From NCBI GenBank assembly GCA_016235055.1, contig JACRMK010000046.1:34958-98957 (forward strand): 64,000 bases of DNA, read 5' to 3'. This stretch comes from Chloroflexota bacterium. Its GTDB lineage: Bacteria > Chloroflexota > Anaerolineae > JACRMK01. Below, piece by piece: positions 11,942 to 64,000 of this stretch. The translations under genes and the position numbers were made by a program. Numbering within the stretch: position 1 is the first letter of the stretch; each line of letters starts with the position of its first letter. The notes below the pieces were generated by a model. It saw nothing but the letters and a program-made list of their open reading frames with translations, was not told where the DNA came from and searched no databases.

Positions 11942-12192
11942 AGGTATATTCAGTTCTGGGGCGCAACCAATACGGAGCAAGAACATAGTAGCTCGTTATG
12001 TCCGCGTAGGGGCGCATGGCCATGCGCCCGCATCCAGAGGTGCTGCCCCCTGGATTCCCGCGGTGCTCTGCGGCCTTCATCCTGTGCCCGCGCCTGCGGC
12101 GCGGAGCGGGGCGAAGCCCCGCTGCACAGGACATCGCGCAGAGCGTTAACCGCCCGCTGGCCCGAAGCCAGCGGGAAACGCGCGGGAGTGAC
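11942..12192. repeat. Composite intergenic repeat, family 4 (GGTATATTCAGTTCTGGGGCGCAACC module plus GTAGGGGCGC hairpins)
   Basis: Modules recur at about 31255-31370 (inverted) and 55057-55220; several perfect short palindromes. Confidence 0.55.
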
Positions 12193-22026: not shown

Positions 22027-23052
22027 ATGACTGACAAGCTGACCATTATGATCGCCTCGCAACTGGAGCCGGAGCACATCGAGCGCATCCGCGCCGTCGA
22101 TCCGCGCATCGAGGTGCTATACGACCTCGCGCTCGTGCCCCAGATGCGCTACATCGCCGACCACACCGGCGGCCCGTTCCAGCGCACGCCGGAACAGCAG
22201 GCGCAGTGGCTCGACTGGCTTAAGCGCGCCGAGGTGCTGTTCGACTTCGAGCGCGCCGCACTGAAAGATCTGCCGGTCACCGGCCCGCGCGTCAAGTGGA
22301 TCCAGTGGACGAGCGCCGGCATCGGCCAGGTGATCAAGGGCGCGGGCATCGACCGGCTGCCGATCGCGCACACGACCGCCAGCGGCGTGCATGCGCGGCC
22401 GCTGGCCGACTTCTGCCTGATGGTCATGCTGATGACGGTCAAGAACTTCCTCTGGATGCAGCGCGACAAGCGTGCGCACCACTGGGAGCGCTACTGCGGC
22501 GAGGAACTGACCGGCAAGACGCTGGCGATCGTCGGCATGGGGCGCGTCGGCAGCGAGGTGGCGCGCACCGGCAAGCTGATGGGCATGTGTGTGATTGGCA
22601 TGCGCCGTGGCACCGAGCCGGCGCCGTACGTCGACCGGATGGTCACGCGCGCGGAACTGCCCGACATGCTGCGCGTGGCCGACTTCGTGGTGCTGATCGC
22701 GCCGCACACGCCCGAGACGGAGAACCTGATCGGTGGTACGGAACTGGCGCAGATGAAGCCGACCGCCGTGCTGATCAACATCGCGCGCGGCCAGTTGGTG
22801 GACGACGCCGCACTGGTGCGCGCCCTGCAGAGCGGCCAGATCGCCGGCGCGGCGATCGACGTGGCGCGCGTCGAGCCGCTCGACCCGGCGTCGCCGCTGT
22901 GGGCGATGCCGAATGTCGTCATCAGCCCGCACTCGGCCAGCACCGTGACGGCCGAGAACGATCGGATCATGGACATCTTCTGCGAGAACATCGGCCACTA
23001 CCTGCGCGGCGAGCCGATGCGCAACCGCTGGAACCCCGATCTGCTATATTGA
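22027..23052 (+). CDS. D-isomer-specific 2-hydroxyacid dehydrogenase, NAD-binding
   Basis: GxGxxG-type motif IVGMGRVG, conserved catalytic R/E/H region (NIARG..., ISPH). Confidence 0.85.
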   Translation: MTDKLTIMIASQLEPEHIERIRAVDPRIEVLYDLALVPQMRYIADHTGGPFQRTPEQQAQWLDWLKRAEVLFDFERAALKDLPVTGPRVKWIQWTSAGIGQVIKGAGIDRLPIAHTTASGVHARPLADFCLMVMLMTVKNFLWMQRDKRAHHWERYCGEELTGKTLAIVGMGRVGSEVARTGKLMGMCVIGMRRGTEPAPYVDRMVTRAELPDMLRVADFVVLIAPHTPETENLIGGTELAQMKPTAVLINIARGQLVDDAALVRALQSGQIAGAAIDVARVEPLDPASPLWAMPNVVISPHSASTVTAENDRIMDIFCENIGHYLRGEPMRNRWNPDLLY

Positions 23053-25687: not shown

Positions 25688-25852
25688 AAATTGCCGATTG
25701 TTGCCGACTTTTAGCGCTTCTTGCCTGTTTGGTGCCCCTTCGTGCCGCTTCGTGGACAATGCTCCCGCGATTTCTGGTATACTTTCAAGGATACGGCCGC
25801 GCGCGGCGGCGCGCCAGCCGGCTGGCGCTGGTTACCCACGGAGGACGCGAAT

Positions 25853-27763
25853 ATGGCTCACGGAAGCACTGGCAAGATCCTGCACGTCAATCTCACCACA
25901 TCGGCTATTCACACCGAAGATATCGACGAGGCGCTGTACCGCCTCTACCCCGGCGGCAAAGCGCTGGCCGCCTACCTGCTGCTCAAGCAGATGCCGGCAC
26001 ACGCCGACCCGCTCGGCCCCGACAATGTGCTGATCCTGGCCAACGGCGTGCTGACCGGCGCGCCGGTCTCGACCGCCACGCGCTTTTCGGCCGTCGCGCG
26101 CTCGCCACTAACCGGCGCATTCGGCGAGTCGGAAGCGGGCGGTTTCTGGGGCCCGGAACTCAAGTTCGCCGGCTTCGAGGCGATCGTGCTCAAAGGGCGC
26201 GCCGACAAGCCGGTCTACCTCTGGATCAAAGACGGCCGGGTCGAGATTCGCGATGCAGCGCACCTGTGGGGCAAGGAGACCGGCGACACGCAGAACGCCG
26301 TGCGCGCCGAACTGGGCGACAAGCTGGTGCGCTTCCTGCAGATCGGCCCCGGCGGCGAGAACCTGGTGCGCTTCGCCTGCCTGACCAACGACCTGCGCCA
26401 CTACAACGGCCGCAACGGCATGGGCGCGGTGATGGGCTCCAAGCGGCTCAAGGGTATCGCCGTGCGCGGCAGCGGCAAGTACCTCGACCTTGCCGAGCAG
26501 CCGAAGGCGCTCTCGGAGTTCGGCAAGCTGCTGTCGAAGCGCGTCAAGAACCAGCCGCAGTCGTTCGACTTGCAGGAGAAGGGCACGCCGGGCATCACCG
26601 GCGGCCTGAACGCGGCCGGCATCCTGCCGACGCGCAACTTCCTGCAGGGCGCGTTCGAAGGCGTGGACGGCCTCAAGTGGGAGGTATACGAGAAGGAACT
26701 GCTGACCGCCCGTCGCTCGTGCTACGCCTGCGCCGTGCGCTGCAAGCGCGAGGTCGCGGTGAACGACCGCTACGTGGTCAGCGATACTTACGGCGGCCCG
26801 GAGTACGAGGCGGTCGGCGGCTTCGGCTCGAACTGTGGCATCGGCGACCTGCAAGCGGTCGCCAAGGCGAACGAACTGTGCGGGCGCTACACGCTCGACG
26901 CCATCTCGACCTCATCGGTCATTTCGTTCGCCATGGAATGCTTCGAGCACGGGCTGATCACGACGAAGGACACCGGCGGCATGGAACTGCGCTTCGGCAA
27001 TGTCGACGCGATGCTGAAGACGGTCGAGTTGATCGCGTTCCGTAAGGGCATCGGCGACCTGCTGGCCGAGGGCGTCAAGCGCGCGGCTGAAAAGATCGGC
27101 GGCGACGCGCCGTTTTTCGCGATGCACGTCAAGGGCCAGGAACTGCCGATGCACGACCCGCGCGGCAAGATTGGCGTTGGCATCGGCTACGCCGTCAACG
27201 AGGGCGGCGCGGATCACCTCGTCGCGTACCACGACACGGCGCTCGCGAACCCGGCGTCGGCCGGTTTCAAGAGCGCGACGGCGCTCGGCATCACGGAAGC
27301 GGTGCCACCGCGCGAACTCAGCGCGCGCAAGGCGTTCAACTACGCGATTCTGGAGAACTGGAGCAGCGCCGGCAAGGTGACCGGCTACTGCTACTTCGGC
27401 CCCGGCCCGCGCTCGTTCATCGAGGCGCAGGAAGTCGTCGATTCGGTGCGCGCGGCGACCGGTTGGGATCTGACGATTGCCGACCTGCTCAAGATCGGCG
27501 AGCGGGCGACGAACCTGGCGCGCGTCTTCAACGTGCGCGAAGGGTTCTCGCGCAAAGACGACATGATCCCGGAGCGGTTGTTTGCGCCGTCGCCGGTCGG
27601 CGCGCTGCAGGGCGTCGGCATCTCGCACGACGAGTTCGAGCAGGCGCTGACCGAGCTGTACCGGCTGAAGGGCTGGGACCCGGAGACCGCGAAGCCGACC
27701 CGCGAGCGCCTGCGCGAGCTGGGCATCGAGTGGGCGGCGGACATCGTCGAGGCGTCCGCGTAG
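25853..27763 (+). CDS. Aldehyde:ferredoxin oxidoreductase (tungsten/molybdopterin AOR family)
   Basis: 636 aa from internal ATG with GGAGGA upstream; N-terminal HVNLT...YPGGKAL AOR signature; cysteine motif CYACAVRC for the [4Fe-4S] cluster. Confidence 0.9.
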   Translation: MAHGSTGKILHVNLTTSAIHTEDIDEALYRLYPGGKALAAYLLLKQMPAHADPLGPDNVLILANGVLTGAPVSTATRFSAVARSPLTGAFGESEAGGFWGPELKFAGFEAIVLKGRADKPVYLWIKDGRVEIRDAAHLWGKETGDTQNAVRAELGDKLVRFLQIGPGGENLVRFACLTNDLRHYNGRNGMGAVMGSKRLKGIAVRGSGKYLDLAEQPKALSEFGKLLSKRVKNQPQSFDLQEKGTPGITGGLNAAGILPTRNFLQGAFEGVDGLKWEVYEKELLTARRSCYACAVRCKREVAVNDRYVVSDTYGGPEYEAVGGFGSNCGIGDLQAVAKANELCGRYTLDAISTSSVISFAMECFEHGLITTKDTGGMELRFGNVDAMLKTVELIAFRKGIGDLLAEGVKRAAEKIGGDAPFFAMHVKGQELPMHDPRGKIGVGIGYAVNEGGADHLVAYHDTALANPASAGFKSATALGITEAVPPRELSARKAFNYAILENWSSAGKVTGYCYFGPGPRSFIEAQEVVDSVRAATGWDLTIADLLKIGERATNLARVFNVREGFSRKDDMIPERLFAPSPVGALQGVGISHDEFEQALTELYRLKGWDPETAKPTRERLRELGIEWAADIVEASA

Positions 27764-27787: not shown

Positions 27788-28120
27788 ATGAGCACCCCCG
27801 TAATCGCCGAGCCGCCGTGCTTGGCTGAAGCGATTGAGCGCATCGTGCAGCAGTTTCACCCGCTGCGCATCATCCTGTTCGGCTCCTGGGCGCGCGGGGA
27901 CGCCCGCCCGGACAGCGACCTTGATTTGCTGGTGGTGATGCCGGAGGCGCAGAACAAGCGCGCTATGACAGTTCGCATAGGCAATTCGTTGAGTGATCTG
28001 CCGATCAGCAAAGATGTCGTGGTAACGACGCCAGCGGAGATCGTGGAGCACGGGCAGACTATCGGGCGGGTGCTCCAGCCGGCGCTGGCCGAAGGCAAAG
28101 TCGTCTATGAGCGCCGATGA
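27788..28120 (+). CDS. Nucleotidyltransferase (MNT/MntA-like antitoxin component)
   Basis: GSWARGD...DSDLDLLVV matches the GSx9-13Dx[DE] minimal nucleotidyltransferase motif; GGAGGAG upstream. Confidence 0.8.
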   Translation: MSTPVIAEPPCLAEAIERIVQQFHPLRIILFGSWARGDARPDSDLDLLVVMPEAQNKRAMTVRIGNSLSDLPISKDVVVTTPAEIVEHGQTIGRVLQPALAEGKVVYERR

Positions 28121-28508
28121 TGTAGGCACTTGGCTGGCGTATGCGCATTCCGACTTGGGGGCGGGTCGGTCACTCTTGCTCGGGCCTGAGCCTTTTTCAC
28201 GCCAGTCGTGTTTTTATGCACAACCGGCTGCGGAAAAGGCGCTAAAAGCTGTGCTGGTAGCGCATGGCATCAAAGTTCCGCACACGCATGACCTTGATCA
28301 TTTGCGTGAGATCATCCCGGGCGGGGCTTCGGTGAAAGTCGAATTCCCGCACCTCTATGCATTGTCGATCTGGGCCGTCGAGGCGCGCTATCCCGGCGAT
28401 CCGCAAGAGGTCACGGCCGATGAGGCACGCGCGGCGCTCGATCTGGCGGAACGAGTGCTGCGGGCGGTGGAGCGCGACTTGCGCGCCGGCGGCGCAGAGG
28501 CGTCGTAG
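28107..28508 (+). CDS. HEPN domain protein (toxin component), overlaps MNT gene by 14 nt
   Basis: 133 aa with HEPN-like helices (QQA/QPAAEKALKAVL); gene order MNT-HEPN with overlapping ends is the canonical arrangement. Confidence 0.75.
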   Translation: MSADDVGTWLAYAHSDLGAGRSLLLGPEPFSRQSCFYAQPAAEKALKAVLVAHGIKVPHTHDLDHLREIIPGGASVKVEFPHLYALSIWAVEARYPGDPQEVTADEARAALDLAERVLRAVERDLRAGGAEAS

Positions 28509-28745
28509 ATGCAGGTGCATCTCGGCGGGCATCTCAACTGGTACGAGCCGCAGCGCCGGGTCTGGGTGGAGTTGCCTGCCGGCGGGGCCATGCGCTTGCT
28601 GGCGATCTGTGCCGCGGTGGGCGTGCCGCCGGAGGAAGTCGCCATCGCCGTCGTGAACGGCCATGCGGTCGACCTGGAGCGTGCCACGGCGACCGATGCC
28701 GACCGCGTGGAGTTATACCCGCCGATCGGCGGCGGGGTGGCATAA
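28509..28745 (+). CDS. MoaD/ThiS-family small beta-grasp protein (sulfur-carrier-like)
   Basis: 78 aa; about this size and with Gly-Gly near the C-terminus (IGGGVA); this family commonly accompanies AOR genes. Confidence 0.55.
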   Translation: MQVHLGGHLNWYEPQRRVWVELPAGGAMRLLAICAAVGVPPEEVAIAVVNGHAVDLERATATDADRVELYPPIGGGVA

Positions 28746-28999: not shown

Positions 29000-29842
29000 C
29001 TACCGCATCGCGCCGTAGACCAGCACGGCGGTGACGGCGCCGGCCAGCGACGCGAGGAAGTTCACCACGTCGTTGTCCATCCATGCCAGCCCGCGCGTCA
29101 GGATCGCCGGGCGGCCGCAGGCGTGGATCGGCTTCTCGGTGTACGCAGCGTCGCTCGCGCAGTAGTAGAGCGCCTGCACCGTTGCGCCCAACAGCGAATC
29201 GACTACGCTGCCGATGAAGCCCGCGATCAGCGCGGTGGTCGGCAGCCAGAGATACGCGCTCAGGGGCACGTCCGCGAAGAATCCCTCGACGTAGCGCCCC
29301 AGCAGCGCCGCCGAGCCGATCAGCAGCGCGCCGGTGGCCGCCGAGATCAGGCCGAGCGTGCTGACCGCGCCGTTCTCGCCGGTCCGCGTCTCGCGCCAGG
29401 TGGTGACCATGCGCGGCGGCGTCAGGCTGAGCATGCCCAGTTCCGTCGCCCACGTGTCGGCCGTCACGGCCGCCATGGCGCCGGCAAACGCGGCGAAGAT
29501 CGGCAGGGTGTACGCGGGAAAAATGGCGCCCGAGACGGCCAGCACGGCCGCCGCGCCGCCGTTGGCGAGCGTCTGCGCCAGGTCGCGGCGGCCACCCTTG
29601 GCGAACTCGGCGGACGATTCGCGTTTGCGTTCCGCGCCGTAGCGCGTCAGCGCCGACGACGAGACGAAGAACGCCACGACGACCACGGCCCAGGCGAAGC
29701 CGCCGAGGCCGAACGTCAGCGTGCCGACGATGGCCGCGCCCGCGACGCCGTCGCGCGTCAGCGCGCCGCGTCGCTGCGCCGCCAGCCCGATCAGCAGGCT
29801 GAGCGCGAACCCGGCGGCCAGTTGCAGAGGCGAAAGAGACAT
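29000..29842 (-). CDS. Integral membrane protein, DUF92 / TIGR00297-like
   Basis: 280 aa, 7-8 predicted TM helices, Gly/Ala-rich composition as in DUF92 membrane proteins. Confidence 0.55.
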   Translation of the reverse strand: MSLSPLQLAAGFALSLLIGLAAQRRGALTRDGVAGAAIVGTLTFGLGGFAWAVVVVAFFVSSSALTRYGAERKRESSAEFAKGGRRDLAQTLANGGAAAVLAVSGAIFPAYTLPIFAAFAGAMAAVTADTWATELGMLSLTPPRMVTTWRETRTGENGAVSTLGLISAATGALLIGSAALLGRYVEGFFADVPLSAYLWLPTTALIAGFIGSVVDSLLGATVQALYYCASDAAYTEKPIHACGRPAILTRGLAWMDNDVVNFLASLAGAVTAVLVYGAMR

Positions 29843-29896
29843 AGGCAGCCCCTCCGGCGCGCGGCGCGGAGGGGCGTTTTCTTCGGAGCGCGGAGA

Positions 29897-30172
29897 CTAC
29901 TGCGGCAGGATGAAGCGCAGTGCAATCATGCCCGCGAGCAATATGGTCGCGAGCACGGCGATGCGGACCAGGTCGCTCTTGACGTGCGCGTACTGCTGCG
30001 CGGGTGCGGACGACAGCGCCGGCGCGGGCGACCGGGGCGCCGGGGCGGCGGTGACGCGCTCGATCGGCTCCATTGAAGCGCCATGCGGCATGGTGGCGGG
30101 TGCAGCGGAGCGGGGCGCCCTGGGGGTCTTGTCGCCCATGCGGCGGCGCTCGCGGCGTGACGGTTTTGCCAT
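29897..30172 (-). CDS. Small tail-anchored protein (basic N-terminus, C-terminal TM helix), hypothetical
   Basis: 91 aa; GGAG 9 nt upstream of ATG; lies between sortase and DUF92 genes on the same strand. Confidence 0.5.
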   Translation of the reverse strand: MAKPSRRERRRMGDKTPRAPRSAAPATMPHGASMEPIERVTAAPAPRSPAPALSSAPAQQYAHVKSDLVRIAVLATILLAGMIALRFILPQ

Positions 30173-30212
30173 GTGAATACTCCGGTGTCTGTGAAATGGC
30201 CCGAAGGGCCGG

Positions 30213-31037
30213 TTACTTCGCCAGTTGGGCGAAGACGATCATGCGCTGGTTGTCGATCAGGTACGGATAACAGGTGATCAGCGTCAGCGTCGGTTCGGTC
30301 GTCGCCTGCAGCACGCTGACGTCCGTCGGCTCGACAATGCGCCGGTTGCGGACGACGTATGTAAACTTCGCTTCCTTCGAATAGACCTGCACCTCGTCCC
30401 CGGCTTTCAGGTCGCCGATATAGCGGAAGACCTCGCCGAAGACATCATCGTGCCCCGATATGACCATGTTGCCGCGCTGGCCCGGATTGGTCGAGCCCGC
30501 CCGGTGTCCCGCGCCTTTCTTGAGCGCTTCCCAATCGTCGCCCTCGACGACCAGCGAATCGACGTTGATCGCCGGGATGACGATGCGCACCGGCTGCTGC
30601 GGGCCGGGCGTCGGAATAGCGACAGGCACGACCTGCTTGAGCACGCCCTTGAACCGCTCCGGCGTGCCCGCCGAGGGCGGCTGTGAAGCGCCGGGCAGCG
30701 TGGCCGCCGCCTCGGGACTGCCGGTGCGCACCTGGCCGCTGCCGGACTGCGCCGCCGCGCTCTCGCGGTTGAGCTCCTGCAGACGAAAGAAGATGGCGAG
30801 GCCGGCAATCAGCAGTCCCGCCACCGCAAAGACCTCGACAGCCAGCAGCAGGCGATTGCCGACGCGCATGAAGTTGATGTCGGGGCGCGCCGTGCCCGCC
30901 GCCTTGAGCTTCTGCGCGCCGCGCTCCATCGCGCTGGTCTGCGACTCCATGCGCGTGCTGAAGCGTTGCCGCGCGCGTTTCTCGGCCAGCAGTTTTTCCA
31001 GCTCTTCAATCGACAGGTCGTTCAGGTGGGTGCTCAT
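30213..31037 (-). CDS. Class E-like sortase (transpeptidase)
   Basis: N-terminal TM anchor, catalytic TLITCYP (TLxTC) motif and conserved His (MVISGHDD). Confidence 0.8.
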   Translation of the reverse strand: MSTHLNDLSIEELEKLLAEKRARQRFSTRMESQTSAMERGAQKLKAAGTARPDINFMRVGNRLLLAVEVFAVAGLLIAGLAIFFRLQELNRESAAAQSGSGQVRTGSPEAAATLPGASQPPSAGTPERFKGVLKQVVPVAIPTPGPQQPVRIVIPAINVDSLVVEGDDWEALKKGAGHRAGSTNPGQRGNMVISGHDDVFGEVFRYIGDLKAGDEVQVYSKEAKFTYVVRNRRIVEPTDVSVLQATTEPTLTLITCYPYLIDNQRMIVFAQLAK

Positions 31038-31254
31038 ACGACGCCCGTCGGCGCAATCGAAATTATACCCGCGCTATGGATGACGGGCAACTGGCGACCC
31101 GGCAACGGGTATACCGACAAACTGTCGGGGACTCAATCGGTCGTCATGCCGGAATGGCGGATTGGTCAGCCGTGCGGCCCCGACACTTTTGCGGTATACC
31201 CTTTCAATTGGGTGCATTTCGGATTGGGGCCGGGCGCATGCAACTCAACGAGGC

Positions 31255-31370
31255 GTCACTCCCGCGGAAGCGGGAGTCCAGGGACAACACCGCTGGATGC
31301 CCGCGCTGGTCGGCGGCGAGCCACCGTGGTCTCATACCGTATTGGTTGCGCCCCGGAACTGAAAATACCC
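31255..31370. repeat. Intergenic repeat, family 4 partial copy
   Basis: CGTATTGGTTGCGCCCCGGAACTGAAAATACC is the reverse complement of the module at 11942; CACTCCCGCGGAAGCGGGAGTC hairpin. Confidence 0.5.
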
Positions 31371-31467
31371 CCTTTCAACGTCTCAAGCATAGCGAACTGC
31401 CTGCGCAGGGGAGCGATTTGCGAGCTCATCGGGTCGGTATTCATAGGGCGTGCCGGGCGCGCCCGGA

Positions 31468-32397
31468 TCACACGTAGACGGTGCAGCCGCGCGTCTCAAG
31501 CTCCACGAGCCATGTGGGTGCGGCCAGCATCTTGTTCCAGCGCAGATCGAGCTTTTCCAGATGAGGCAGGTTGCGGATGCCCGCAGGCAGTTGCGCCAGC
31601 CGGTTGGCGCGCAGGTCGAGGGTGCGCAGATTGCGCAGGCCGCCGAGGGTTTCCGGCAGGGCGATCAGCGCATTGTTTCGCAAGTCGAGGTCAGTCAGGC
31701 TGCGCAGGCCACCGATTGACTCCGGGAGCGTGGTCAGCCGATTGTCCTGCAATACCAGTTTCCGCAGCGCCCCGAGCGCTCCAATGGATTCCGGCAGCGA
31801 CGCCAGCCGGTTGTTCATCGCGTGCAGTTCCCGCAGGCGCGTCAACCGCCCCAGCGATTCCGGCAGCGCGCCGATCTGGTTGTTGTACACGCGCAACTCG
31901 CTCAGTTGCGTCAGGTCGCCGATGAACTCCGGTAGCGACGTGAGCCGGTTATCGGTCACGTTCAGGTAGATCAGCCTGCCGAGTTTCCCCATTGATTCGG
32001 GCATGCTCGTCAGTTGATTGTTGCTCCCGTACAGAAACGCCAGTTGGCCCAGCCTGCCGAGTGCAACAGGGAGCTCGGCCAATGCGTTGTGCCCCAGGTC
32101 GAGCATGCGCAGCGCGGTGAGCTCGCCGATGCCGCCCGGTAATGCGGTCAGCCTGTTGTCCGCGACGTTGAGCGTTTGCAGCGCGCTCAACTGCCAGAGC
32201 GAGTCGGGCAGTTCGCTCAACCGGTTGTGGTACAGGCTCAACGATGTGAGCGTAATCAGTTCGCCGATCCAGCGGGGCAGTTCGCTCAACCGATTCAGAT
32301 CGAGGTCGAGATCGGCCAGCACAGCGCTGGCGCGAATATGGTCGGGCACGCTGGCCAAGTCGCGGCCGCGCAGGCTGATGCTGGTCGGGTTGTGCAT
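31468..32397 (-). CDS. Leucine-rich repeat (LRR) protein
   Basis: About 12 tandem 23-aa repeats of LxxLxLxxNxLxxLPxxIGxLxx; no other domain; start at internal ATG (MHNPTS). Confidence 0.8.
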   Translation of the reverse strand: MHNPTSISLRGRDLASVPDHIRASAVLADLDLDLNRLSELPRWIGELITLTSLSLYHNRLSELPDSLWQLSALQTLNVADNRLTALPGGIGELTALRMLDLGHNALAELPVALGRLGQLAFLYGSNNQLTSMPESMGKLGRLIYLNVTDNRLTSLPEFIGDLTQLSELRVYNNQIGALPESLGRLTRLRELHAMNNRLASLPESIGALGALRKLVLQDNRLTTLPESIGGLRSLTDLDLRNNALIALPETLGGLRNLRTLDLRANRLAQLPAGIRNLPHLEKLDLRWNKMLAAPTWLVELETRGCTVYV

Positions 32398-32565
32398 GAT
32401 GAGGTGCCGGCATTGTAGGTGCGGCCCCGGCAATCCGCAAATCGGCGCCAGATGCGCGCACGGTTAGCAGCACAATACGCCGTCGAATCACACCTTATTG
32501 TCGGAAAGCCTACCCTTCGACAGGCTCAGGGTACGTGTGTCATTGCGCCCGGCCGCTGGCCGTGT

Positions 32566-32571
32566 TATGAT
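32566..32571 (+). promoter_or_regulatory. -10-like hexamer TATGAT 7 nt upstream of ATG (leaderless-type)
   Basis: GTGTTATGATGCCGGTCATG. Confidence 0.4.
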
Positions 32572-32578
32572 GCCGGTC

Positions 32579-33601
32579 ATGGATACCATCCGCACCCTCC
32601 GCGTCGCCGTCAGCGGCATCCCGCGCGGCTGCCAGACGGCCCGCCCCGATGGCAACTGGCTCTCGCCTGTTCAGCGGACGCAGATCGAGTCCGTTTCCTC
32701 CCGCATCGAGTTAATCGAGCATCCGGCCGACCGGATCGGCGCACCGGTCGGCAGCGAGGTGCTGCTGGCCGAAGGCGGCAACCGCACGCACTACCCCGGC
32801 GAATTGGACTGGGACGACTATCTGCGCTTCTTCATGCCGAGCCTGCGCTGGGTGCAACTATGCAGCACCGGCTTCAGCGACAACATCACCCCGCAGGTGC
32901 TCGACGGCTCCGTGACGCTGACCAATGCGCCGGGCATTCACACCATTCCGATCGCCGAGAGCGTGCTGGCGGCGATGCTCGATCACGCCAAGCGCCTGCG
33001 CGAGCGGCGCATCCACCAGCAGTCGCGCGACTGGCAGGCGCTGCACACCGGTGAACTGCACGGGCGCACCGTGCTGATCATCGGCCTGGGGCGTATCGGC
33101 GGGCGCGTGGCGCAACTGGCGCGCGCGTTCGGCATGCGCGTGATCGGCGTGCGGCGCACCACGGCCGCCGCAAACGAGGCCGATGAAGTGATCGGTCCGC
33201 CGGCGCTGCGCGCGCGCCTGCCCGAGGCCGATTACGTTGTCATGACCGCGCCGTTGACGCCGGAGACCGAGCGCATGCTCGGCGCGGCTGAACTGGCCGC
33301 GATGAAGCCGTCGGCGTACTTCGTCAACGTCGGGCGCGGTTCTACGGTGGACGAAGACGCGCTGGCGCGCGCCATGGCGACGCGGCAGATCGCCGGCGCG
33401 TACCTCGATGCGTTTGCCGACGAGCCGCTGCCGCCGGCGCACCCGTTCTGGGCGCTCGACAACGTCCTGCTGGTGCCGCACGACAGCCACTCGTCGCCGC
33501 ACATCACCGACCGGATGGTGGCGCTGTTCTGCGACAACCTGCGGCGCTATGTCGGCGGCGAACCGCTCCTGCATGTCTGCGACCGGACGCGAGGCTATTG
33601 A
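32579..33601 (+). CDS. D-isomer-specific 2-hydroxyacid dehydrogenase, NAD-binding (paralog)
   Basis: IIGLGRIGG nucleotide-binding motif; catalytic region NVGRG ... VPHDSH. Confidence 0.85.
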   Translation: MDTIRTLRVAVSGIPRGCQTARPDGNWLSPVQRTQIESVSSRIELIEHPADRIGAPVGSEVLLAEGGNRTHYPGELDWDDYLRFFMPSLRWVQLCSTGFSDNITPQVLDGSVTLTNAPGIHTIPIAESVLAAMLDHAKRLRERRIHQQSRDWQALHTGELHGRTVLIIGLGRIGGRVAQLARAFGMRVIGVRRTTAAANEADEVIGPPALRARLPEADYVVMTAPLTPETERMLGAAELAAMKPSAYFVNVGRGSTVDEDALARAMATRQIAGAYLDAFADEPLPPAHPFWALDNVLLVPHDSHSSPHITDRMVALFCDNLRRYVGGEPLLHVCDRTRGY

Positions 33602-54821: not shown

Positions 54822-55056
54822 ATTATAACATTATAACGGCATAGCGGGAGCGCAACAATAGCCCATACGGCACAAAAGTCGCTGAACTGTGCCATCCGGC
54901 CAGCCGGCCAGCGCGGTGCCGTCAGGCTCTGCCGGGGTGGAAGGCGCCAATCCCCTCGCCTGCGACGCCGTTGGGTGAGCCTGCCGAACCCCGTCGCGGG
55001 AGAGGGTTTGGGAGCGGGCCAATCCGACTCTGAAAAGACCCAGACCCGATAAGCAG

Positions 55057-55220
55057 GGTGCATTTCACTTCTGGGGCGGCTAATGGGCCAACAAGCCGTC
55101 ATGCCGTTGCCCGCTGGCCCCTTGCCAGCGGGCGCTTGACGGTCAGCGGCGAGAAGCCGCTGACCAGCGCGGGCATCCAGAGGTGTTGCCCCTGGACTCC
55201 CGCTTTCGCGGGAGTGACGA
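55057..55220. repeat. Composite intergenic repeat, family 4 copy
   Basis: GGTGCATTTCACTTCTGGGGCGGC module; GCCCGCTGGCCCCTTGCCAGCGGGC and TCCCGCTTTCGCGGGA hairpins matching modules at 12030-12192. Confidence 0.55.
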
Positions 55221-55316
55221 TGTGGAGGGCTGACTGGTTATGCGCCGAATCTCGCCCCTAATCTGAAATACACCCGATAAGAACATTTGTTTCATTGGTG
55301 GTTCATCCTGTGGTAT

Positions 55317-59069: not shown

Positions 59070-59186
59070 GTCACATCCGTTCCAGCCGGTCTTATTTATC
59101 TCGCCTCGCTTGACTTTCCCCCGCCAAATCGAGTACGCTTGCAACGCAACACCGTCCACAACCATGACCTGGTAAGGAGGCATCCC

Positions 59187-60785
59187 ATGACCACGTTGTA
59201 TGCCGAGAAGCAGGCTGCGTTCGATTGGATCGAAGCCAACCGAGCGCGCCTTTCCGGCTTCTGCGAGCAGATCTGGAACTATGCGGAGACGGCGTTCCGC
59301 GAGTACAAGTCCGCGCGCGCGTATTGCGATCTGCTGCGCGCCGAAGGGTTCACCGTCGAGGAAGGCTCCGCCGAGATGCCGACGGCGTTCGTCGCGACGT
59401 ACGGCAACGGCGGGCCGGTGCTGGCGACGTTCTCCGAATACGACGCCGTGCCGGAGAACTCGCAGGAGCGCGTGCCGTACCCGTCGCCGCGCGCCGGCCT
59501 GAACCGCTGGGCGGCCGGGCACACCGACCCGCACTCGTCGCTCGGCACGAGCGCGCTGATCGGTGCGCTGGCCGCCAAGGCGATGATGGTCAAATACGGG
59601 CTGCACGGCACGCTCAAGCTGTTCGGCGAGCCGGCGGAGAAGGTCTGCGGTTCCAAGCCGGTACACGCCGCCAAGGGGTATTACGACGGGCTCGACGCGG
59701 CGGTCGTCTATCACCCCAATGCCAGCAACTCCGTAGTGTGGGAAACACACAGCGGCTCGTACTGGAGCGCGGCGTTCGTCTTTGAGTGCATCGATCCGGA
59801 GGAGTGGATCGACCAGCGCCTGCTGCCGAACACGAGCACCTCGCACGCGGCGGCGCGCTGTCCGGCGGCGATCGACGCGCTGTGCCTGATGTATACGCTG
59901 ACCAAGTACAGCAAGGAGGCGATGTTCCCGCACACCGGCACCTGGACGCTCAACGAGAACATCATGGTTGGCGGGCAGTGCACCTCGGACAACCTGCCGC
60001 CGCGCCTGGCGGTCATCCAGTACTCGTGGCGCTCGCCGACGCTCGACATCCAGGAGCGCGTATTCCAGGTGCTGGCGCAGAACGCGCGGCAGGTCGCCGG
60101 CGCGACCGGCTGCGTCGCCTCGGTGCGCTGGATCACGAAGACGCGCGTCGGCCTGCCGAACCTGGCGATCTCCGACCTGGCCTACCGCAACCTGGAACTG
60201 GTCGGCGCGCCCCAGTTTGGAGACGAGGCGCGCACCTTCGCCCGCGCGATCCAGAAGAATCTCGGCTTCGAGCCGATGGACGACCCGTTCATTGCCGACA
60301 ACCAGACGCTGACGCCGCCGCCCGAACTGGAAGCGCGCGTGCGCCAGGGCCTGCCGCCGTGGCAGCTCAACTTCACGTCGGATGATTATGTGGAATACAC
60401 CTGGCACGCGCCGACCGTGCGGCTCTACACGGCGCGGCCGCGCCTGAAGGCGCCCAAGCCCGGTTACACGTACCCGGCATGGGTGAACAACGCGATGGGC
60501 GGCGTGCCGGCCTGCATCGATCCCGGCATGTTCGTCGCGGGCAAGACGATCGCCGCGACGATGCTCGATCTGCTCAAGTCCCCGGACGAGCTCGCCAAAG
60601 CGCAAGCCGAGTTCCGCGAGCGGACGGGTGGCGGCGTGGGCGGCAGCCAGTGGGTCGCGCCGCTGTTGGCGCGCGATTTCCCGCCGCCGGTCGAATTACG
60701 CTGGCCGGAGTACGTGCAGACGCCGCGCGGCGAGGAGTGGTGGGTGCCGACGGTGACGCACGAATCGGCCTACGTGAAGCTGTAG
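59187..60785 (+). CDS. M20-family amidohydrolase (aminobenzoyl-glutamate-utilization AbgB-like)
   Basis: 532 aa from internal ATG with AAGGAGG upstream; metal-ligand regions (GHTDPHS, EPAEK) typical of M20 peptidases. Confidence 0.8.
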   Translation: MTTLYAEKQAAFDWIEANRARLSGFCEQIWNYAETAFREYKSARAYCDLLRAEGFTVEEGSAEMPTAFVATYGNGGPVLATFSEYDAVPENSQERVPYPSPRAGLNRWAAGHTDPHSSLGTSALIGALAAKAMMVKYGLHGTLKLFGEPAEKVCGSKPVHAAKGYYDGLDAAVVYHPNASNSVVWETHSGSYWSAAFVFECIDPEEWIDQRLLPNTSTSHAAARCPAAIDALCLMYTLTKYSKEAMFPHTGTWTLNENIMVGGQCTSDNLPPRLAVIQYSWRSPTLDIQERVFQVLAQNARQVAGATGCVASVRWITKTRVGLPNLAISDLAYRNLELVGAPQFGDEARTFARAIQKNLGFEPMDDPFIADNQTLTPPPELEARVRQGLPPWQLNFTSDDYVEYTWHAPTVRLYTARPRLKAPKPGYTYPAWVNNAMGGVPACIDPGMFVAGKTIAATMLDLLKSPDELAKAQAEFRERTGGGVGGSQWVAPLLARDFPPPVELRWPEYVQTPRGEEWWVPTVTHESAYVKL

Positions 60786-60835
60786 CCAAACGCGACGCAC
60801 AAACGGAAGCGGGACAGGCATGATGCCTGTCCCGC
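60705..60835 (+). repeat. Direct repeat, left copy (3' end of M20 gene plus terminator)
   Basis: 131 bp; identical to 62092-62222 except 2 substitutions. Confidence 0.85.
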
Positions 60836-60841
60836 TTTTTT
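60811..60841 (+). terminator. Rho-independent terminator of M20 gene
   Basis: GGGACAGGC-atga-GCCTGTCCC followed by GCTTTTTTG. Confidence 0.7.
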
Positions 60842-60945
60842 GTTGTGCGTGCTATCCCTCAGCGCGCCCGGCTGGACGAAACTGGCTTGAATCCCCGTTT
60901 GCGGCAATCCGCACGAGGAATGTCAAACAGCATCAGTACGGAGAA

Positions 60946-61080
60946 AATGGGGGTACGACGGCGTGTGCCCATTGCCAACGCAGTGGGCAACAAGTCAAGG
61001 ACGGAATCAATGCGTTTGGCAGCCTGCAGTATCGATGCAAAGGCTGTTGCCCTTCTGAACTTTTTCACTTAACACGGTAG
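60946..61080 (+). pseudogene. Possible IS1595-family transposase N-terminal zinc-ribbon remnant
   Basis: ...NGGTTACAHCQRSGQQVKDGINAFGSLQYRCKGCCPSELFHLTR then stop; pattern NG..C.HC...(13)...YRCK.C...F resembles the Zn_Tnp_IS1595 ribbon; no DDE domain follows. Confidence 0.3.
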
Positions 61081-61086
61081 CAATTG

Positions 61087-61743
61087 TCATCTTCCAAGCA
61101 ATTCTGCATTCGACTGGAATAGAGGAATCTGTGTACTTTCAGTATCATCGCAGTCCGGTGAGAACTTGTATTTCACGTTGAAACTCATTTCTGAATAGCT
61201 GTAGGCTTGATACCCTTTAAAATGGGAATTGGAAAGCTGGGTAAAGCGATTCTCAATAGGTTTCCATACGGCGGTGCTCCAATATGAAACCGGATATCGT
61301 ATGCACGACCTCTCGTGAGCCCCACCATCTTGAACATCCAAATCGACAAAAACCAAGAATCGATCTGAACCGAACTTCACATACTCGACCAAGTAGTAGC
61401 CCTTGCCATGATACCAAACGTCTCGCCTGACCCCGACGTTTATCGAACCAAGCGCTTGTGCCTTGGTGATAAACGCCGCGACCCCTGAGGCATCTTGCAC
61501 GGCCGCAGTCGCCCAGAAGGTATTTTCGCGTTGAGCTTTACGCTGTGACTCAATTGTGCTGACAGCTCGATCATCAAGTGTACCATATGAAATCGCATTC
61601 GACGCGCCTTGGTAAACTGCGACGACGGCAGAGAATCCGACGAGGATGATCAGGAGGCCGATTAATCCCCTCAGCAAATTGCCAAAACATCCCGACTCGA
61701 TCAAAATACCCAAGCCAACAGCTCGAAAGAAGTTATCGCTCAT
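61087..61743 (-). CDS. Hypothetical membrane-anchored protein (cargo gene B)
   Basis: 218-aa ORF in AT-richer DNA where stop-free frames of this length are unlikely by chance; two N-terminal hydrophobic helices; ATGA overlap with upstream ORF. Confidence 0.55.
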   Translation of the reverse strand: MSDNFFRAVGLGILIESGCFGNLLRGLIGLLIILVGFSAVVAVYQGASNAISYGTLDDRAVSTIESQRKAQRENTFWATAAVQDASGVAAFITKAQALGSINVGVRRDVWYHGKGYYLVEYVKFGSDRFLVFVDLDVQDGGAHERSCIRYPVSYWSTAVWKPIENRFTQLSNSHFKGYQAYSYSEMSFNVKYKFSPDCDDTESTQIPLFQSNAELLGR

Positions 61744-62054
61744 ATTCCGCCTGCGTCTTTCTCTTCGGTGACAACTGGAGGAAAACAGCGCTTTGCACTA
61801 GAAAGCATGTCTCGCCGTGTGTACCGCATGTATCCAATCTTCAAGTATATGCACTTTGCATTGTGGCGACCATCATGATAGCGGTGTGAGTTTCCAGGCT
61901 TGGGCAATGGCGAACGAAGATGGAAATAGCATCGAACTTCGCTCGCGTATTTTCTTCTGAACTCAGCCCACGGTTGGTTTGTCCCATAAACACAGTCATT
62001 ATACAACTTTGTGCTGCGTTTCTGGTTTATCGGCAATGGGTGTAGCAACGACAT
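61740..62054 (-). CDS. Hypothetical Cys/His-rich small protein (cargo gene A)
   Basis: 104 aa; 4 Cys and 6 His could form a metal site; no obvious RBS. Confidence 0.45.
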   Translation of the reverse strand: MSLLHPLPINQKRSTKLYNDCVYGTNQPWAEFRRKYASEVRCYFHLRSPLPKPGNSHRYHDGRHNAKCIYLKIGYMRYTRRDMLSSAKRCFPPVVTEEKDAGGI

Positions 62055-62091
62055 ACACTTGATTCCATCGATACCGTGCGGTTTGCTCTGG

Positions 62092-62222
62092 CCGGAATAC
62101 GTGCAGACGCCGCGCGGCGAGGAGTGGTGGGTGCCGACGGTGACGCACGAATCGGCCTACGTGAAGCTGTAGCCAAACGCGACGCACAAACGGAAGCGGG
62201 ACAGGCATCATGCCTGTCCCGC
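62092..62222 (+). repeat. Direct repeat, right copy (duplicate of M20 3' end plus terminator hairpin)
   Basis: Same 131 bp as 60705-60835 with G-to-A at position 6 and loop ATGA-to-ATCA; followed by TTCATTTTC. Confidence 0.85.
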
Positions 62223-62459
62223 TTCATTTTCACTCGGGCGCGGTATTCTGTTCGGACCCTATCTGGCTGCGTCGGGATCGCGTAGGGGCGCACCGACGTG
62301 TGCGCCCGCCTGGCACGCTGCGGGCCGACACGCAGGTCGGCCCCTACCACCGGCGCTTTGCGGGTGGCTTTGCCCAATTCGCACGCATGTTCTAAGTTTG
62401 TGCTATAATAGCGACGGGCACAGAACATTAGTTCTCACTACCGCTATAGGAGAATCGCG

Positions 62460-62733: not shown

Positions 62734-64000
62734 TTACGCCGGTCGCCAGCAGAGGTCCGGCTTGCGCGCTGCCGTCGCCTCGTCCAGCCGCGAGACCGGC
62801 GTGGTGTGCGGCGCAGAGCGCACGAGCTCGGGGTTCTCCTCGGCCTCGCGCGCGATCTGCAGCATCACCTCGCAGAAGCGGTCGATCGTCTCCTTGCTCT
62901 CCGTCTCGGTCGGCTCGACCATCAGCGCTTCCTCGACGACCAGCGGGAAGTAGACCGTCGGCGGGTGAATGCCGAAGTCGATCAGCCGCTTGGCGATGTC
63001 GAGCGTGCGCACGTTGTTCTTCGCCTGGCGCTTGCCGGAAAAGACGACCTCGTGGTAGCAGGTGCGGTCGAACGGCAGGTCGTACGCGCCCTTGAGGCGC
63101 TCCTTGATGTAGTTCGCGTTCAGCACGGCGATCTGGCTCACCTCGCGCAGGCCGTCCTCGCCGTGTGAGCGGATGTACGCGTAGCCGCGCACCAGGTTGG
63201 CGAAGTTGCCGTGGAACGCGCGCACCCGGCCGATCGACAGCGGCCGGTCGTTGTCGAGCGTGTAGCGGCCATCCTTGAATGCGACGACCGGCGCCGGCAG
63301 GAACGGCGCCAGCGCCTTGGAAACGCTTGTGCCGCACGCGCCCGGCCCGCCGCCGCCGTGCGGCACGCCGAACGTCTTGTGCAGGTTGTAGTGCAGGATG
63401 TCGAAGCCGACCTCGCCCGGCTTGCAGATGCCGAGCAGGGCGTTCATGTTCGCGCCGTCGCCGTACACCAGGCCGCCCGCCGCGTGCACCAGTCGATTGA
63501 TCTGCTCGATGTGCTGGTCGAAAAGGCCAACCGTCGACGGATTGGTGATCATCATGCCCGCGACCGTGTCGTCGAGCAGCGCCTTCAGCGCGTCCACGTC
63601 CACGTTGCCGTGGGCGTCCGCCTTGACGGTGACGACGCTGTAGCCGACCATCGCGGCGGTCGCCGGGTTGGTGCCGTGCGAGCTATCCGGCACGATAATT
63701 TTGGTGCGCTTCGTGTCGCCGCGCGACTTGTGATAGCCGTGGATCATCAGCACGCCGGTCAGTTCGCCGTGCGCGCCTGCCGCCGGCTGCAGCGTCGCGC
63801 CCGCGTGCCCTGCGATCTCGGCGAGCTGCTCCTGCAGTTCGTACATCATGCGCAGCGCGCCCTGCACGGTGCTCTCAGCCTGGTACGGGTGAATGCGCGC
63901 AAAGCCCGCCTGCCCGGCGATGACGTCGTTGATCTTCGGGTTGTACTTCATCGTGCACGAGCCGAGCGGATAGAACACGGTATCCACGCTGAAGTTCTTG
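62734..64000 (-). CDS. gcvPB: Glycine dehydrogenase (decarboxylating) subunit 2, GcvPB; 5' end lies beyond window
   Basis: PLP-enzyme motifs incl. [13 protein letters not shown] and LHKTF (Lys for PLP); reading frame stays open to the window edge. Confidence 0.9.

What the first reader, a model, noticed from the sequence alone, without database searches (positions are those of the whole stretch)
31468..32397. Stand-alone eukaryote-like leucine-rich-repeat protein
About 12 regular 23-residue LRRs with the LxxLxLxxNxLxxLP consensus and essentially nothing else. In bacteria such proteins are often horizontally acquired effectors, adhesins or E3-ligase-type substrate adaptors. The gene is bracketed by repeat-rich intergenic DNA.
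Basis: partly seen in the sequence, partly recalled or inferred. Interest (0 to 1): 0.4.

Follow-up and report, generated by a model that had tools for sequence, protein, structure and literature searches.

The report
Ordinary cytoplasmic leucine-rich-repeat adaptor protein
This is a real 309-residue gene made only of leucine-rich repeats, in an uncultured Anaerolineae (Chloroflexota) genome; it belongs to a widespread bacterial family of non-secreted repeat proteins of unknown partner, and nothing marks it as an imported effector, adhesin or ubiquitin-ligase adaptor.

Summary
Window 31468-32397 (-) encodes a 309-aa protein with one degenerate and 12 exact 23-residue LRRs plus a short C-terminal cap, and no other domain. 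The AF2 model has pLDDT 96.

The effector/adhesin/E3 reading is not supported:
- There is no signal peptide, TM segment, NEL, Roc/COR, Fic or internalin module.
- GC3 (0.83) is typical of the window (0.857 +/- 0.048).
- The closest relatives are bacterial, not eukaryotic.

The protein belongs to a large bacterial family marked by the tail LEKLDLRW...LExRGCxVY. More narrowly, it belongs to a group of gap-free 309-aa orthologues, 56-62% identical, on metagenome contigs of 46-56% GC. A 75%-identical partial orthologue sits in the same position upstream of the sortase gene in a related groundwater contig (dN/dS 0.17). A second relative shows the same C-terminal tail there. Five other relatives have different genes at that junction. 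It is therefore a lineage-restricted accessory gene, neither housekeeping nor recently imported.

Conservation is concentrated on the concave face (69% invariant against 12% for convex positions), which implies a conserved but unknown ligand. No recurrent neighbouring gene was found.

Only the 3' intergenic spacer is repeat-rich: 373 bp of dispersed repeat modules that are absent from relatives.

Verdict: new member of a known kind, low interest.

The parts
31468..32397 (-). CDS of the 309-aa LRR-only protein. It has 13 LRRs (residues 4-26 degenerate; 12 exact 23-residue repeats from residue 27), the last running on to the end as the cap LETRGCTVYV. The stop codon TGA is at 31470-31468.
   Evidence: start and length supported by gap-free 309-aa orthologues
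32398..32566 (.). Divergent 169-bp spacer between the LRR gene and a D-2-hydroxyacid dehydrogenase gene (32567-33601 +). Read by eye on the - strand: TTGCGG (32440-32435), 17 nt, TACAAT (32417-32412), ending 14 nt before the ATG. This is a weak promoter candidate that would give a very short leader. The spacer holds no dispersed repeats.
   Evidence: sequence; not reported by the promoter scan because the -35 hexamer matches only 3 of 6; no repeats; dehydrogenase identified
31453..31466 (-). Perfect GC palindrome CCGGGCGCGCCCGG starting one base after the stop codon. No T-run follows it. It may act as a transcript-end hairpin.
   Evidence: self-match 31466-31453; not called by the terminator scan
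31095..31467 (.). Window-specific 373-bp repeat-rich spacer between the LRR stop codon and the conserved sortase promoter. Relatives have far less DNA here: the LRR-to-sortase intergenic gap is about 80 bp in L047 and about 130 bp in L044, promoter included. The spacer contains an inverted repeat (31104-31135/31173-31204), 'GGGTrYAyyyC...GGGGCCG' units at 31176-31201 (-) and 31210-31232 (+), module B (31254-31317) and module C (31337-31369).
   Evidence: Independent Logan assemblies break exactly at 31172-31201
31062..31090 (-). Sigma-70-like promoter of the downstream sortase gene (TTGCCC, 17 nt, TATAAT), conserved in relatives whether or not they carry the LRR gene. This argues that the LRR gene is a separate transcription unit.

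Best explanation
The gene encodes a cytoplasmic solenoid protein made only of LRRs. It most likely acts as a protein-protein recognition adaptor that binds a conserved but still unknown bacterial ligand on its concave beta-sheet face.

Shown:
- It is a real gene under purifying selection.
- It has 13 LRRs and no catalytic, anchoring or secretion module.
- It belongs to a large bacterial family defined by the C-terminal signature LEKLDLRW-x(8-10)-LExRGCxVY, and within it to a 309-aa orthologous group.
- Sequence conservation is concentrated on the concave face.
- The same LRR module occurs elsewhere fused to many different N-terminal domains: GNAT, methyltransferase, P-loop kinase, receiver, alpha/beta-hydrolase, nucleotidyltransferase, TIR, RING/U-box, Roc GTPase and membrane transporters.
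- In this lineage it is an accessory gene at a synteny breakpoint upstream of a conserved sortase / 91-aa protein / DUF92 block.

Inferred:
- Cytoplasmic location.
- Adaptor function through the concave face.
- Monocistronic expression from its own weak promoter.
For: Repeat anatomy. LRR-only Pfam content.

Structure: AF2 horseshoe with pLDDT 96.2. The closest folds are the Leptospira LRR-only proteins (4u08, 4u06, 7yjw at TM 0.85-0.88), SHOC2, LRRD1 and the Chlorobium Roco LRR.

Location: no signal peptide or TM segment.

Family: 76 of the 120 best hits carry the DLRW...RGCxV tail, either as stand-alone 200-330 aa proteins or fused to varied N-terminal domains.

Orthologues: gap-free 309-aa orthologues at 56-62% identity in L051-L054, L064 and L066, whose genes are 46-56% GC.

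Selection: dN/dS is 0.17 against the 75%-identical partial orthologue in L047.

Concave face: positions 3, 5, 7 and 8 are invariant in 69% of cells, against 12% for convex/loop positions and 64% for the structural core. The same trend holds in the wider family.

Composition: typical of the genome.

Position: the gene sits upstream of the sortase gene in L044 and L047, which lack the repeat-rich spacer.
Against: - No ligand is identified.
- No recurrent neighbouring gene appears among 42 family loci that could point to a partner.
- Cytoplasmic location rests only on the absence of a recognisable N-terminal signal. The structurally closest solved proteins (Leptospira LIC10831, LIC11098) are extracellular, and some Leptospira LRR proteins lack predicted signal peptides (PMC11674859).
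- There is no expression evidence. The promoter candidate is weak, and no Shine-Dalgarno sequence is evident upstream of the ATG.
Confidence: 0.6

Rival explanations
1. It is a secreted or surface 'eukaryote-like' LRR protein (effector or adhesin) that binds host or other extracellular molecules. The models are the Leptospira LRR proteins, the internalins, and the LRR proteins enriched in sponge-symbiont Chloroflexi.
For: - The best structural matches are extracellular Leptospira LRR-only proteins (PMC11674859).
- Papers retrieved on sponge-symbiont Chloroflexi mention leucine-rich repeats and eukaryote-like proteins in their text (PMC6306507; term counts, paper not read).
- NCBIfam's nearest models are type III effectors, although all are far below their cut-offs.
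Against: - No signal peptide, lipobox, TM segment, LPXTG or cell-wall anchor.
- No NEL, Fic or IR domains.
- One relative carrying the orthologue comes from a groundwater metagenome.
- The concave face is conserved across family members from contigs of 40-70% GC, which fits a conserved bacterial ligand better than host targets.
- Eukaryotic proteins are more distant than bacterial ones.
Confidence: 0.1
2. It is a sensor or adaptor subunit of a conflict (anti-phage or programmed-death) system. It would act like the LRR of NLR-type proteins and work in trans with a separately encoded effector.
For: - The same LRR module is fused to TIR, RING/U-box, Roc and nucleotidyltransferase domains in other proteins.
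- An MNT-HEPN pair lies about 3 kb away.
- Comparative-genomics papers on bacterial conflict systems that mention leucine-rich repeat or ROCO proteins and Chloroflexi were retrieved (PMC7159879, PMC8195603; term counts, papers not read).
Against: - No PADLOC model matches.
- No conserved neighbour in 42 family loci.
- The recognition face is strongly conserved rather than diversifying, and dN/dS is 0.17.
- The MNT-HEPN pair is separated from it by the conserved sortase / 91-aa protein / DUF92 block.
Confidence: 0.12
3. It is recently acquired mobile cargo: the LRR gene arrived by horizontal transfer together with the flanking repeats.
For: - The gene sits at a synteny breakpoint. It is absent at this junction from L045/L046, L048, L049, L005 and L006.
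- Repeat modules lie next to it.
- Its GC (63.5%) is slightly below that of its neighbours.
Against: - GC3 is within 0.6 sd of the window mean. The lower total GC comes from codon position 2, that is, from Leu/Asn-rich composition.
- Orthologues in the same position exist in L047 and L044 without the repeat insert, so the repeats came later.
- Repeats lie on one side only.
- No integrase, transposase or tRNA is adjacent.
Confidence: 0.08

Closest known systems
Leptospira LRR-only proteins (LIC11098 / 4u08, LIC10831 / 4u06, LIC12759 / 4u09, LSS01692 / 7yjw)
   Same: These are bacterial proteins consisting only of LxxLxLxxNxLxxLP-type LRRs. They are the best Foldseek matches (E 1e-22 to 1e-18; TM up to 0.88 with 7yjw) and strong sequence matches (4u08 at 3e-84).
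   Different: LIC10831 and LIC11098 carry predicted signal peptides and are experimentally extracellular host-binding proteins of a pathogen (PMC11674859). The window protein has no signal peptide and comes from an uncultured Anaerolineae genome; one related contig is from groundwater. Identity in the Foldseek alignments is only 31-36%, and the Leptospira proteins are not among the hits that carry the LEKLDLRW...RGCxVY tail.
SHOC2 (eukaryotic LRR scaffold of the SHOC2-MRAS-PP1C holophosphatase)
   Same: It is a cytoplasmic scaffold with the same LRR type that binds partners on the concave face. PDB sequence match 3e-71; Foldseek E about 1e-19 to 1e-20. This is the best analogy for how the window protein probably works.
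   Different: SHOC2 has about 20 LRRs plus an N-terminal disordered region and is eukaryotic. There is no evidence of MRAS- or PP1-like partners here. Identity is 28-33%.
NEL-type E3 ligase effectors (IpaH, SspH2, SlrP)
   Same: They contain an LRR domain that recognises the substrate.
   Different: They need a C-terminal NEL catalytic domain and type III secretion. The window protein ends 7 residues after its last full 23-residue repeat unit. NCBIfam scores are 128 bits against a cut-off of 1113 (SlrP) and 70 against 1243 (SspH2).
Xanthomonas LRR effectors XopAC / XopAE / XopL
   Same: They give the highest-scoring NCBIfam models, but the match covers LRR segments only.
   Different: The scores (187, 175 and 124 bits) are far below the cut-offs (450, 600, 500). 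Fic and XL-box domains are absent.
ROCO proteins (e.g. Chlorobium tepidum Roco LRR, 5il7)
   Same: The LRR is of the same type, and some family members are fused to Roc/Ras-like GTPase domains (P0116, P0249). Foldseek E 3e-14.
   Different: The window protein has no Roc or COR domain.
Internalins (InlA and relatives)
   Same: Bacterial LRR solenoids (Foldseek TM 0.74-0.82).
   Different: From general knowledge, internalins have 22-residue repeats, an N-terminal signal peptide and cap, an Ig-like inter-repeat domain and LPXTG/GW anchors. None of these is present here. NCBIfam internalin_A scores 54 bits against a cut-off of 1600.

Membership tests
Leucine-rich repeat superfamily (23-residue LxxLxLxxNxLxxLP type; COG4886-like) | Tandem 20-30-residue repeats with the LxxLxLxxN/CxL core | tested here: met
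   12 exact 23-residue repeats plus 1 degenerate repeat; Pfam LRR_14, LRR_8, LRR_4 and LRR_1 all above cut-offs
Leucine-rich repeat superfamily (23-residue LxxLxLxxNxLxxLP type; COG4886-like) | Curved solenoid with a parallel beta-sheet on the concave face | tested here: met
   AF2 model with pLDDT 96.2 and 13 regularly spaced strands plus a terminal capping strand; Foldseek matches to LRR structures, 766 with E <= 0.001
'RGC-tail' bacterial LRR family (defined here, not curated) | C-terminal signature LEKLDLRW-x(8-10)-LExRGCxVY ending the protein | tested here: met
   The window protein ends ...LEKLDLRWNKMLAAPTWLVELETRGCTVYV. 76 of the 120 best hits share the signature, as do all the metagenome orthologues.
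'RGC-tail' bacterial LRR family (defined here, not curated) | Repeat-specific concave signatures: MLDLGHN, FLYxxNN, YLNxxxN, ELRxxxN, ELHxxNN, LDLRxN | tested here: met
   Alignments A2 and A4; conservation statistics
NEL (IpaH/SspH/SlrP) E3 ubiquitin ligase effectors | C-terminal NEL domain with a catalytic cysteine | tested here: not met
   No sequence follows the LRR cap. NCBIfam SlrP scores 128 bits against 1113 and SspH2 70 against 1243.
NEL (IpaH/SspH/SlrP) E3 ubiquitin ligase effectors | Type III secretion by the producing organism | not testable with these tools
   Only 64 kb of the genome is available. No T3SS genes were seen in the parts of the window that were annotated.
Internalins | Signal peptide, N-cap, 22-residue LRRs, Ig-like IR domain, and an LPXTG or GW anchor | tested here: not met
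   The period is 23. There is no N-terminal hydrophobic segment and no LPXTG. internalin_A scores 54 bits against 1600.
ROCO proteins | Roc GTPase and COR domains following the LRR | tested here: not met
   Only LRR families reach their Pfam cut-offs; there is no Roc or COR match. The protein is 309 aa and the repeats fill it.
Xanthomonas XopAC / XopAE / XopL effectors | Score above the NCBIfam cut-off, and a Fic or XL-box effector domain | tested here: not met
   187/450, 175/600 and 124/500 bits; the matches are confined to LRR segments.
Known anti-phage defence system components | Match to a PADLOC-DB model | tested here: not met
   0 families at E <= 0.01

The most novel reading that the evidence does not exclude
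The 309-aa orthologous group, and the wider 'LEKLDLRW...RGCxVY' family, may be an uncharacterised and widespread bacterial cytosolic adaptor. Its near-invariant concave face would recognise one conserved cellular ligand, making it a prokaryotic counterpart of SHOC2-type scaffolds. The many enzyme-LRR fusions (GNAT, methyltransferase, kinase, receiver, TIR, RING/U-box, Roc) would then be 'Rosetta-stone' clues that different activities are recruited to that same ligand.
Probability: 0.25. Interest if true: 0.45.

Novelty: new member of a known kind. Interest (0 to 1): 0.15.

Why it matters
For this window it matters little. The gene is one more LRR-only protein among a very large number: 148,160 cluster representatives match at E <= 0.001 and 11,195 at E <= 1e-30. 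It should not be annotated as an effector, adhesin or E3 adaptor.

The mildly useful by-product is a sharply defined and apparently unstudied bacterial subfamily. It has fixed length, a fixed repeat-by-repeat concave signature and a conserved C-terminal RGCxVY tail. Its conservation pattern predicts a single conserved ligand. If someone identified that ligand, a very common 'hypothetical LRR protein' annotation in soil and groundwater bacteria could be resolved.

Tried and rejected
1. Guilt by association. I looked at the gene neighbourhoods of three homologues. I also clustered all ORFs from 42 family loci by all-against-all comparison. No neighbour recurred beyond groups of near-identical contigs.

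2. Protein searches to find named close orthologues and their taxonomy. The word-index prefilter is saturated by generic LRR proteins. The 56-75% orthologues found at DNA level never appeared, so a taxonomic distribution could not be derived.

3. Exact-sequence cluster look-up of the window protein and four orthologues. None was found.

4. Exhaustive HMMER search of 1.84 billion representatives. The top of the list is dominated by giant multi-LRR proteins, so it only shows the size of the LRR universe.

5. Rfam search of the flanks, at both gathering and E <= 1 thresholds. Nothing was found. The RNA fold of the 3' spacer is only weakly better than shuffles (z -1.9).

6. PADLOC search: no match.

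7. Sortase substrate idea, rejected. There is no signal peptide and no LPXTG/LAXTG sorting signal (the tail LETRG is followed by only 5 residues). The sortase block is conserved in relatives that lack the LRR gene.

8. Truncated fragment of a multidomain protein, rejected. Orthologues have the same 309-aa length, dN/dS is 0.17, and only 169 bp lie upstream.

9. Literature search for the Logan run accessions to learn the habitat: no hits.

Full report
**Observation**

The ORF list shows a minus-strand ORF at 31468-32433. Its in-frame ATG at 32397 gives the 309-aa protein at exactly the coordinates of the finding. A motif scan places LxxLxLxxNxL cores at residues 27, 50, 73, 96, 119, 142, 165, 188, 211, 234, 257 and 280. 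That is twelve repeats with an exact period of 23. A degenerate repeat (residues 4-26...ISLRGRDLASVPDHI...) precedes them, and the last repeat runs on to the end as the cap ...LVELETRGCTVYV.

Pfam finds only LRR families (LRR_14 7.5e-47, LRR_8 2.3e-36, LRR_4, LRR_1). An AlphaFold2 model built on a 48-sequence alignment has mean pLDDT 96.2 and pTM 0.91, with 13 regularly spaced beta-strands plus a terminal capping strand. The repeat observation is therefore correct and far beyond chance.

**Location and extra domains**

There is no N-terminal hydrophobic segment. The most hydrophobic 19-residue window scores 1.15 and lies inside a repeat. There is no LPXTG-type signal, and the pI is 7.0.

NCBIfam's best models are type III effectors and internalins. 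Every match covers only LRR segments and lies far below the curated cut-off:

| Model | Score (bits) | Cut-off (bits) |
|---|---|---|
| XopAC | 187 | 450 |
| XopAE | 175 | 600 |
| SlrP | 128 | 1113 |
| XopL | 124 | 500 |
| SspH2 | 70 | 1243 |
| InlA | 54 | 1600 |

. PADLOC has no match. The protein ends seven residues after its last full 23-residue repeat unit. Only 169 bp separate its start from a divergently transcribed D-2-hydroxyacid dehydrogenase gene. There is no room for a lost catalytic domain.

**Organism and composition**

The downstream sortase is 100% identical to an NCBI protein named 'MAG: class D sortase [Chloroflexi bacterium]' on a 139,767-bp contig. All related genome loci are Anaerolineae or other Chloroflexota MAGs.

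GC3 of the LRR gene is 0.829. Forty-two window genes average 0.857 +/- 0.048. Its slightly lower total GC (63.5%) comes from codon position 2, that is, from Leu/Asn-rich composition. Codon choice for Leu and Arg resembles that of the neighbours. There is no compositional sign of recent import.

**Family**

The 120 best database hits are 33-57% identical. Seventy-six of them end with the same signature, LEKLDLRW followed by about ten residues and LExRGCxVY(R). Most are stand-alone proteins of 200-330 aa with nine repeats. Others carry the same C-terminal LRR module behind unrelated N-terminal domains:
- GNAT (Kitasatospora), SAM methyltransferase and AAA_33 kinase-like domains;
- BrkB/YihY, MFS and AI-2E membrane domains;
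- receiver, alpha/beta-hydrolase and nucleotidyltransferase domains;
- TIR, RING/U-box and Roc/Ras-like GTPase domains.

A DNA-level scan of JGI metagenomes then found proteins that align with the window protein over all 309 residues without a single gap, at 56-62% identity (L051, L052-L054, L064, L066). These genes are 46-56% GC. More family members occur on contigs of 40-70% GC.

So the window protein belongs to a fixed-length orthologous group inside a large bacterial family. Eukaryotic proteins (a plant SHOC2-like protein, fish LRRC40) are more distant at 36-39%. 'Eukaryote-like' describes the repeat type, not the ancestry.

Relatives were ordered by sortase identity.

| Locus | Sortase aa identity | Gene upstream of sortase |
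|---|---|---|
| L044 (Logan) | 91% (86% nt) | Contig starts with ...LEARGCTVYT*, an LRR tail 130 bp upstream |
| L047 (groundwater) | 85% | 133-aa partial LRR gene, 75% identical, including the two repeats that distinguish the 13-repeat group; ends 80 bp upstream |
| L045/L046 | 89% | Polytopic membrane protein |
| L048 | 77% | Oppositely oriented alpha/beta-hydrolase-like gene |
| L049 | 70% | HldE-like genes and MurJ |
| L005 | 61% | HldE-like genes and MurJ |
| L006 | 65% | TPR protein |

None of the 34 GTDB loci, including L005 and L006, has an LRR gene within 10 kb. L045 and L047 are equally diverged from the window at the nucleotide level (79.6% and 78.7%), yet they differ in LRR presence.

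The sortase / small protein / DUF92 block is conserved throughout. The LRR gene sits at its variable upstream junction. dN/dS between the window gene and the L047 gene is 0.17. The gene is therefore an older, selectively maintained, lineage-restricted accessory gene. It is neither a housekeeping gene of the whole lineage nor a recent acquisition.

**Flanking repeats**

Only the 3' side is repeat-rich. An alignment of the window with L044, L047 and L045 shows a conserved sortase promoter (TTGCCC, 17 nt, TATAAT; window 31090-31062) in all four. The window carries 373 bp between the LRR stop codon and that conserved region (31095-31467). In the relatives the whole LRR-to-sortase intergenic gap, promoter included, is only about 80 bp (L047) and about 130 bp (L044).

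This stretch contains:
- a GC palindrome directly after the stop codon (31466-31453);
- module C (31337-31369, 94% identical to 11943-11975);
- module B (31254-31317, 94% identical to 55156-55219, with a CTCCCGC-N4-GCGGGAG hairpin);
- several 'GGGTrYAyyyC...GGGGCCG' units in alternating orientation, including the 32-nt inverted repeat 31104-31135/31173-31204.

Four Logan contigs from three sequencing runs are 100% identical to the window and end at 31172 or start at 31196/31201, that is, inside one such unit. This is what a multi-copy repeat does to a de Bruijn assembler.

The repeats are thus later insertions of small dispersed elements into the spacer, not part of an LRR-carrying mobile unit. 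There is no Rfam match, and the RNA fold z-score is only -1.9. The 5' spacer has no repeats.

**How it probably works**

The strongest functional clue is where conservation lies.

| Position class | Invariant cells, six 309-aa orthologues |
|---|---|
| Solvent-exposed concave 'x' positions 3, 5, 7, 8 of LxxLxLxxN | 69% |
| Structural core | 64% |
| Convex and loop positions | 12% |

Repeats 5-13 carry fixed signatures: MLDLGHN, FLYxSNN, YLNxTDN, ELRxYxN, ELHxMNN, KLxLQxN, DLDLRxN, LDLRAN, KLDxRWN. The wider family shows the same pattern (0.76-0.94 against 0.42-0.58).

A conserved concave face is the hallmark of an LRR that binds one conserved partner. An immune sensor or host-targeting effector would be expected to diversify there. 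The structurally closest solved proteins are the Leptospira LRR-only proteins, SHOC2, LRRD1 and a Roco LRR. SHOC2 is the best mechanistic analogy: a cytoplasmic scaffold that assembles partners on its concave face.

I therefore commit to a cytoplasmic protein-binding adaptor with an unknown conserved ligand (confidence about 0.6). The identity of the ligand could not be approached. No neighbouring gene recurs across 42 family loci.

**Rivals**

- Secreted effector or adhesin, about 0.1. This is supported only by analogy to Leptospira proteins (PMC11674859) and by papers retrieved on sponge-symbiont Chloroflexi (PMC6306507; not read). It is contradicted by the lack of any export signal and by the conserved face.
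- Conflict-system sensor, about 0.12. TIR, RING and Roc fusions and a nearby MNT-HEPN pair speak for it. The absence of a PADLOC match, the lack of a conserved partner gene and purifying selection on the recognition face speak against it.
- Recent mobile cargo, about 0.08. This is largely refuted by composition and by orthologues in the same position that lack the repeats.

**Novelty and verdict**

LRR-only proteins of this type are extremely common: 148,160 cluster representatives match at E <= 0.001 and 11,195 at E <= 1e-30. This gene is a new member of a known kind, and interest is low (0.15).

The only modestly novel point is that it belongs to a sharply defined, apparently unstudied subfamily with a fixed repeat-by-repeat concave signature and a conserved RGCxVY tail. 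Its single conserved ligand would be worth identifying.

Noticed in passing
window 31095-31467; 55056-55275; 11943-11975: A family of small dispersed intergenic repeat modules. 'GGGTGyATTTC...GGGGCG' units form terminal inverted copies of a roughly 220-bp MITE-like element at 55056-55275. Module B (with the hairpin CTCCCGC-N4-GCGGGAG) and module C (CCGTATTGGTTGCGCCCCnGAACTGAA) are each shared between the LRR 3' spacer and one other intergenic site. Independent metagenome assemblies break inside the unit at 31172-31201.
   Followed up: partly
window 60687-62224: A low-GC insert (48% against about 65%) of roughly 1.24 kb carries two unannotated minus-strand ORFs (61087-61743, 218 aa; 61740-62054, 104 aa). 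It is flanked by a 151-nt direct repeat (60687-60837 and 62074-62224, 95%). The repeat duplicates the 3' end and terminator-like hairpin of the 548-aa gene at 59139-60785. This looks like an integration with target duplication.
   Followed up: partly
window 27788-28745: An MNT (NTP_transf_2/Polbeta) and HEPN toxin-antitoxin-like pair, followed by a small Ub-Mut7C (ubiquitin-like) ORF. It lies next to an aldehyde:ferredoxin oxidoreductase gene at 25721-27763.
   Followed up: no
window 29000-31037, and L044, L045, L047, L049, L050: A conserved three-gene block of class D/E-type sortase, a small (about 91-102 aa) hydrophobic-tailed protein and the DUF92 membrane protein. It has a strongly conserved sigma-70-like promoter upstream of the sortase gene. 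The block persists across Anaerolineae relatives while the upstream gene varies.
   Followed up: partly
window 63283-63374: ARAGORN calls a 92-nt 'tRNA-Ala(GGC)' on the minus strand. Rfam's tRNA model does not report it at gathering score. It overlaps the 5' part of a long coding ORF (62734-63987), so it is probably a false positive.
   Followed up: no
window 22027-23052 and 32567-33601: Two paralogous D-2-hydroxyacid dehydrogenase genes lie in the window, 39% identical over 245 aa.
   Followed up: no
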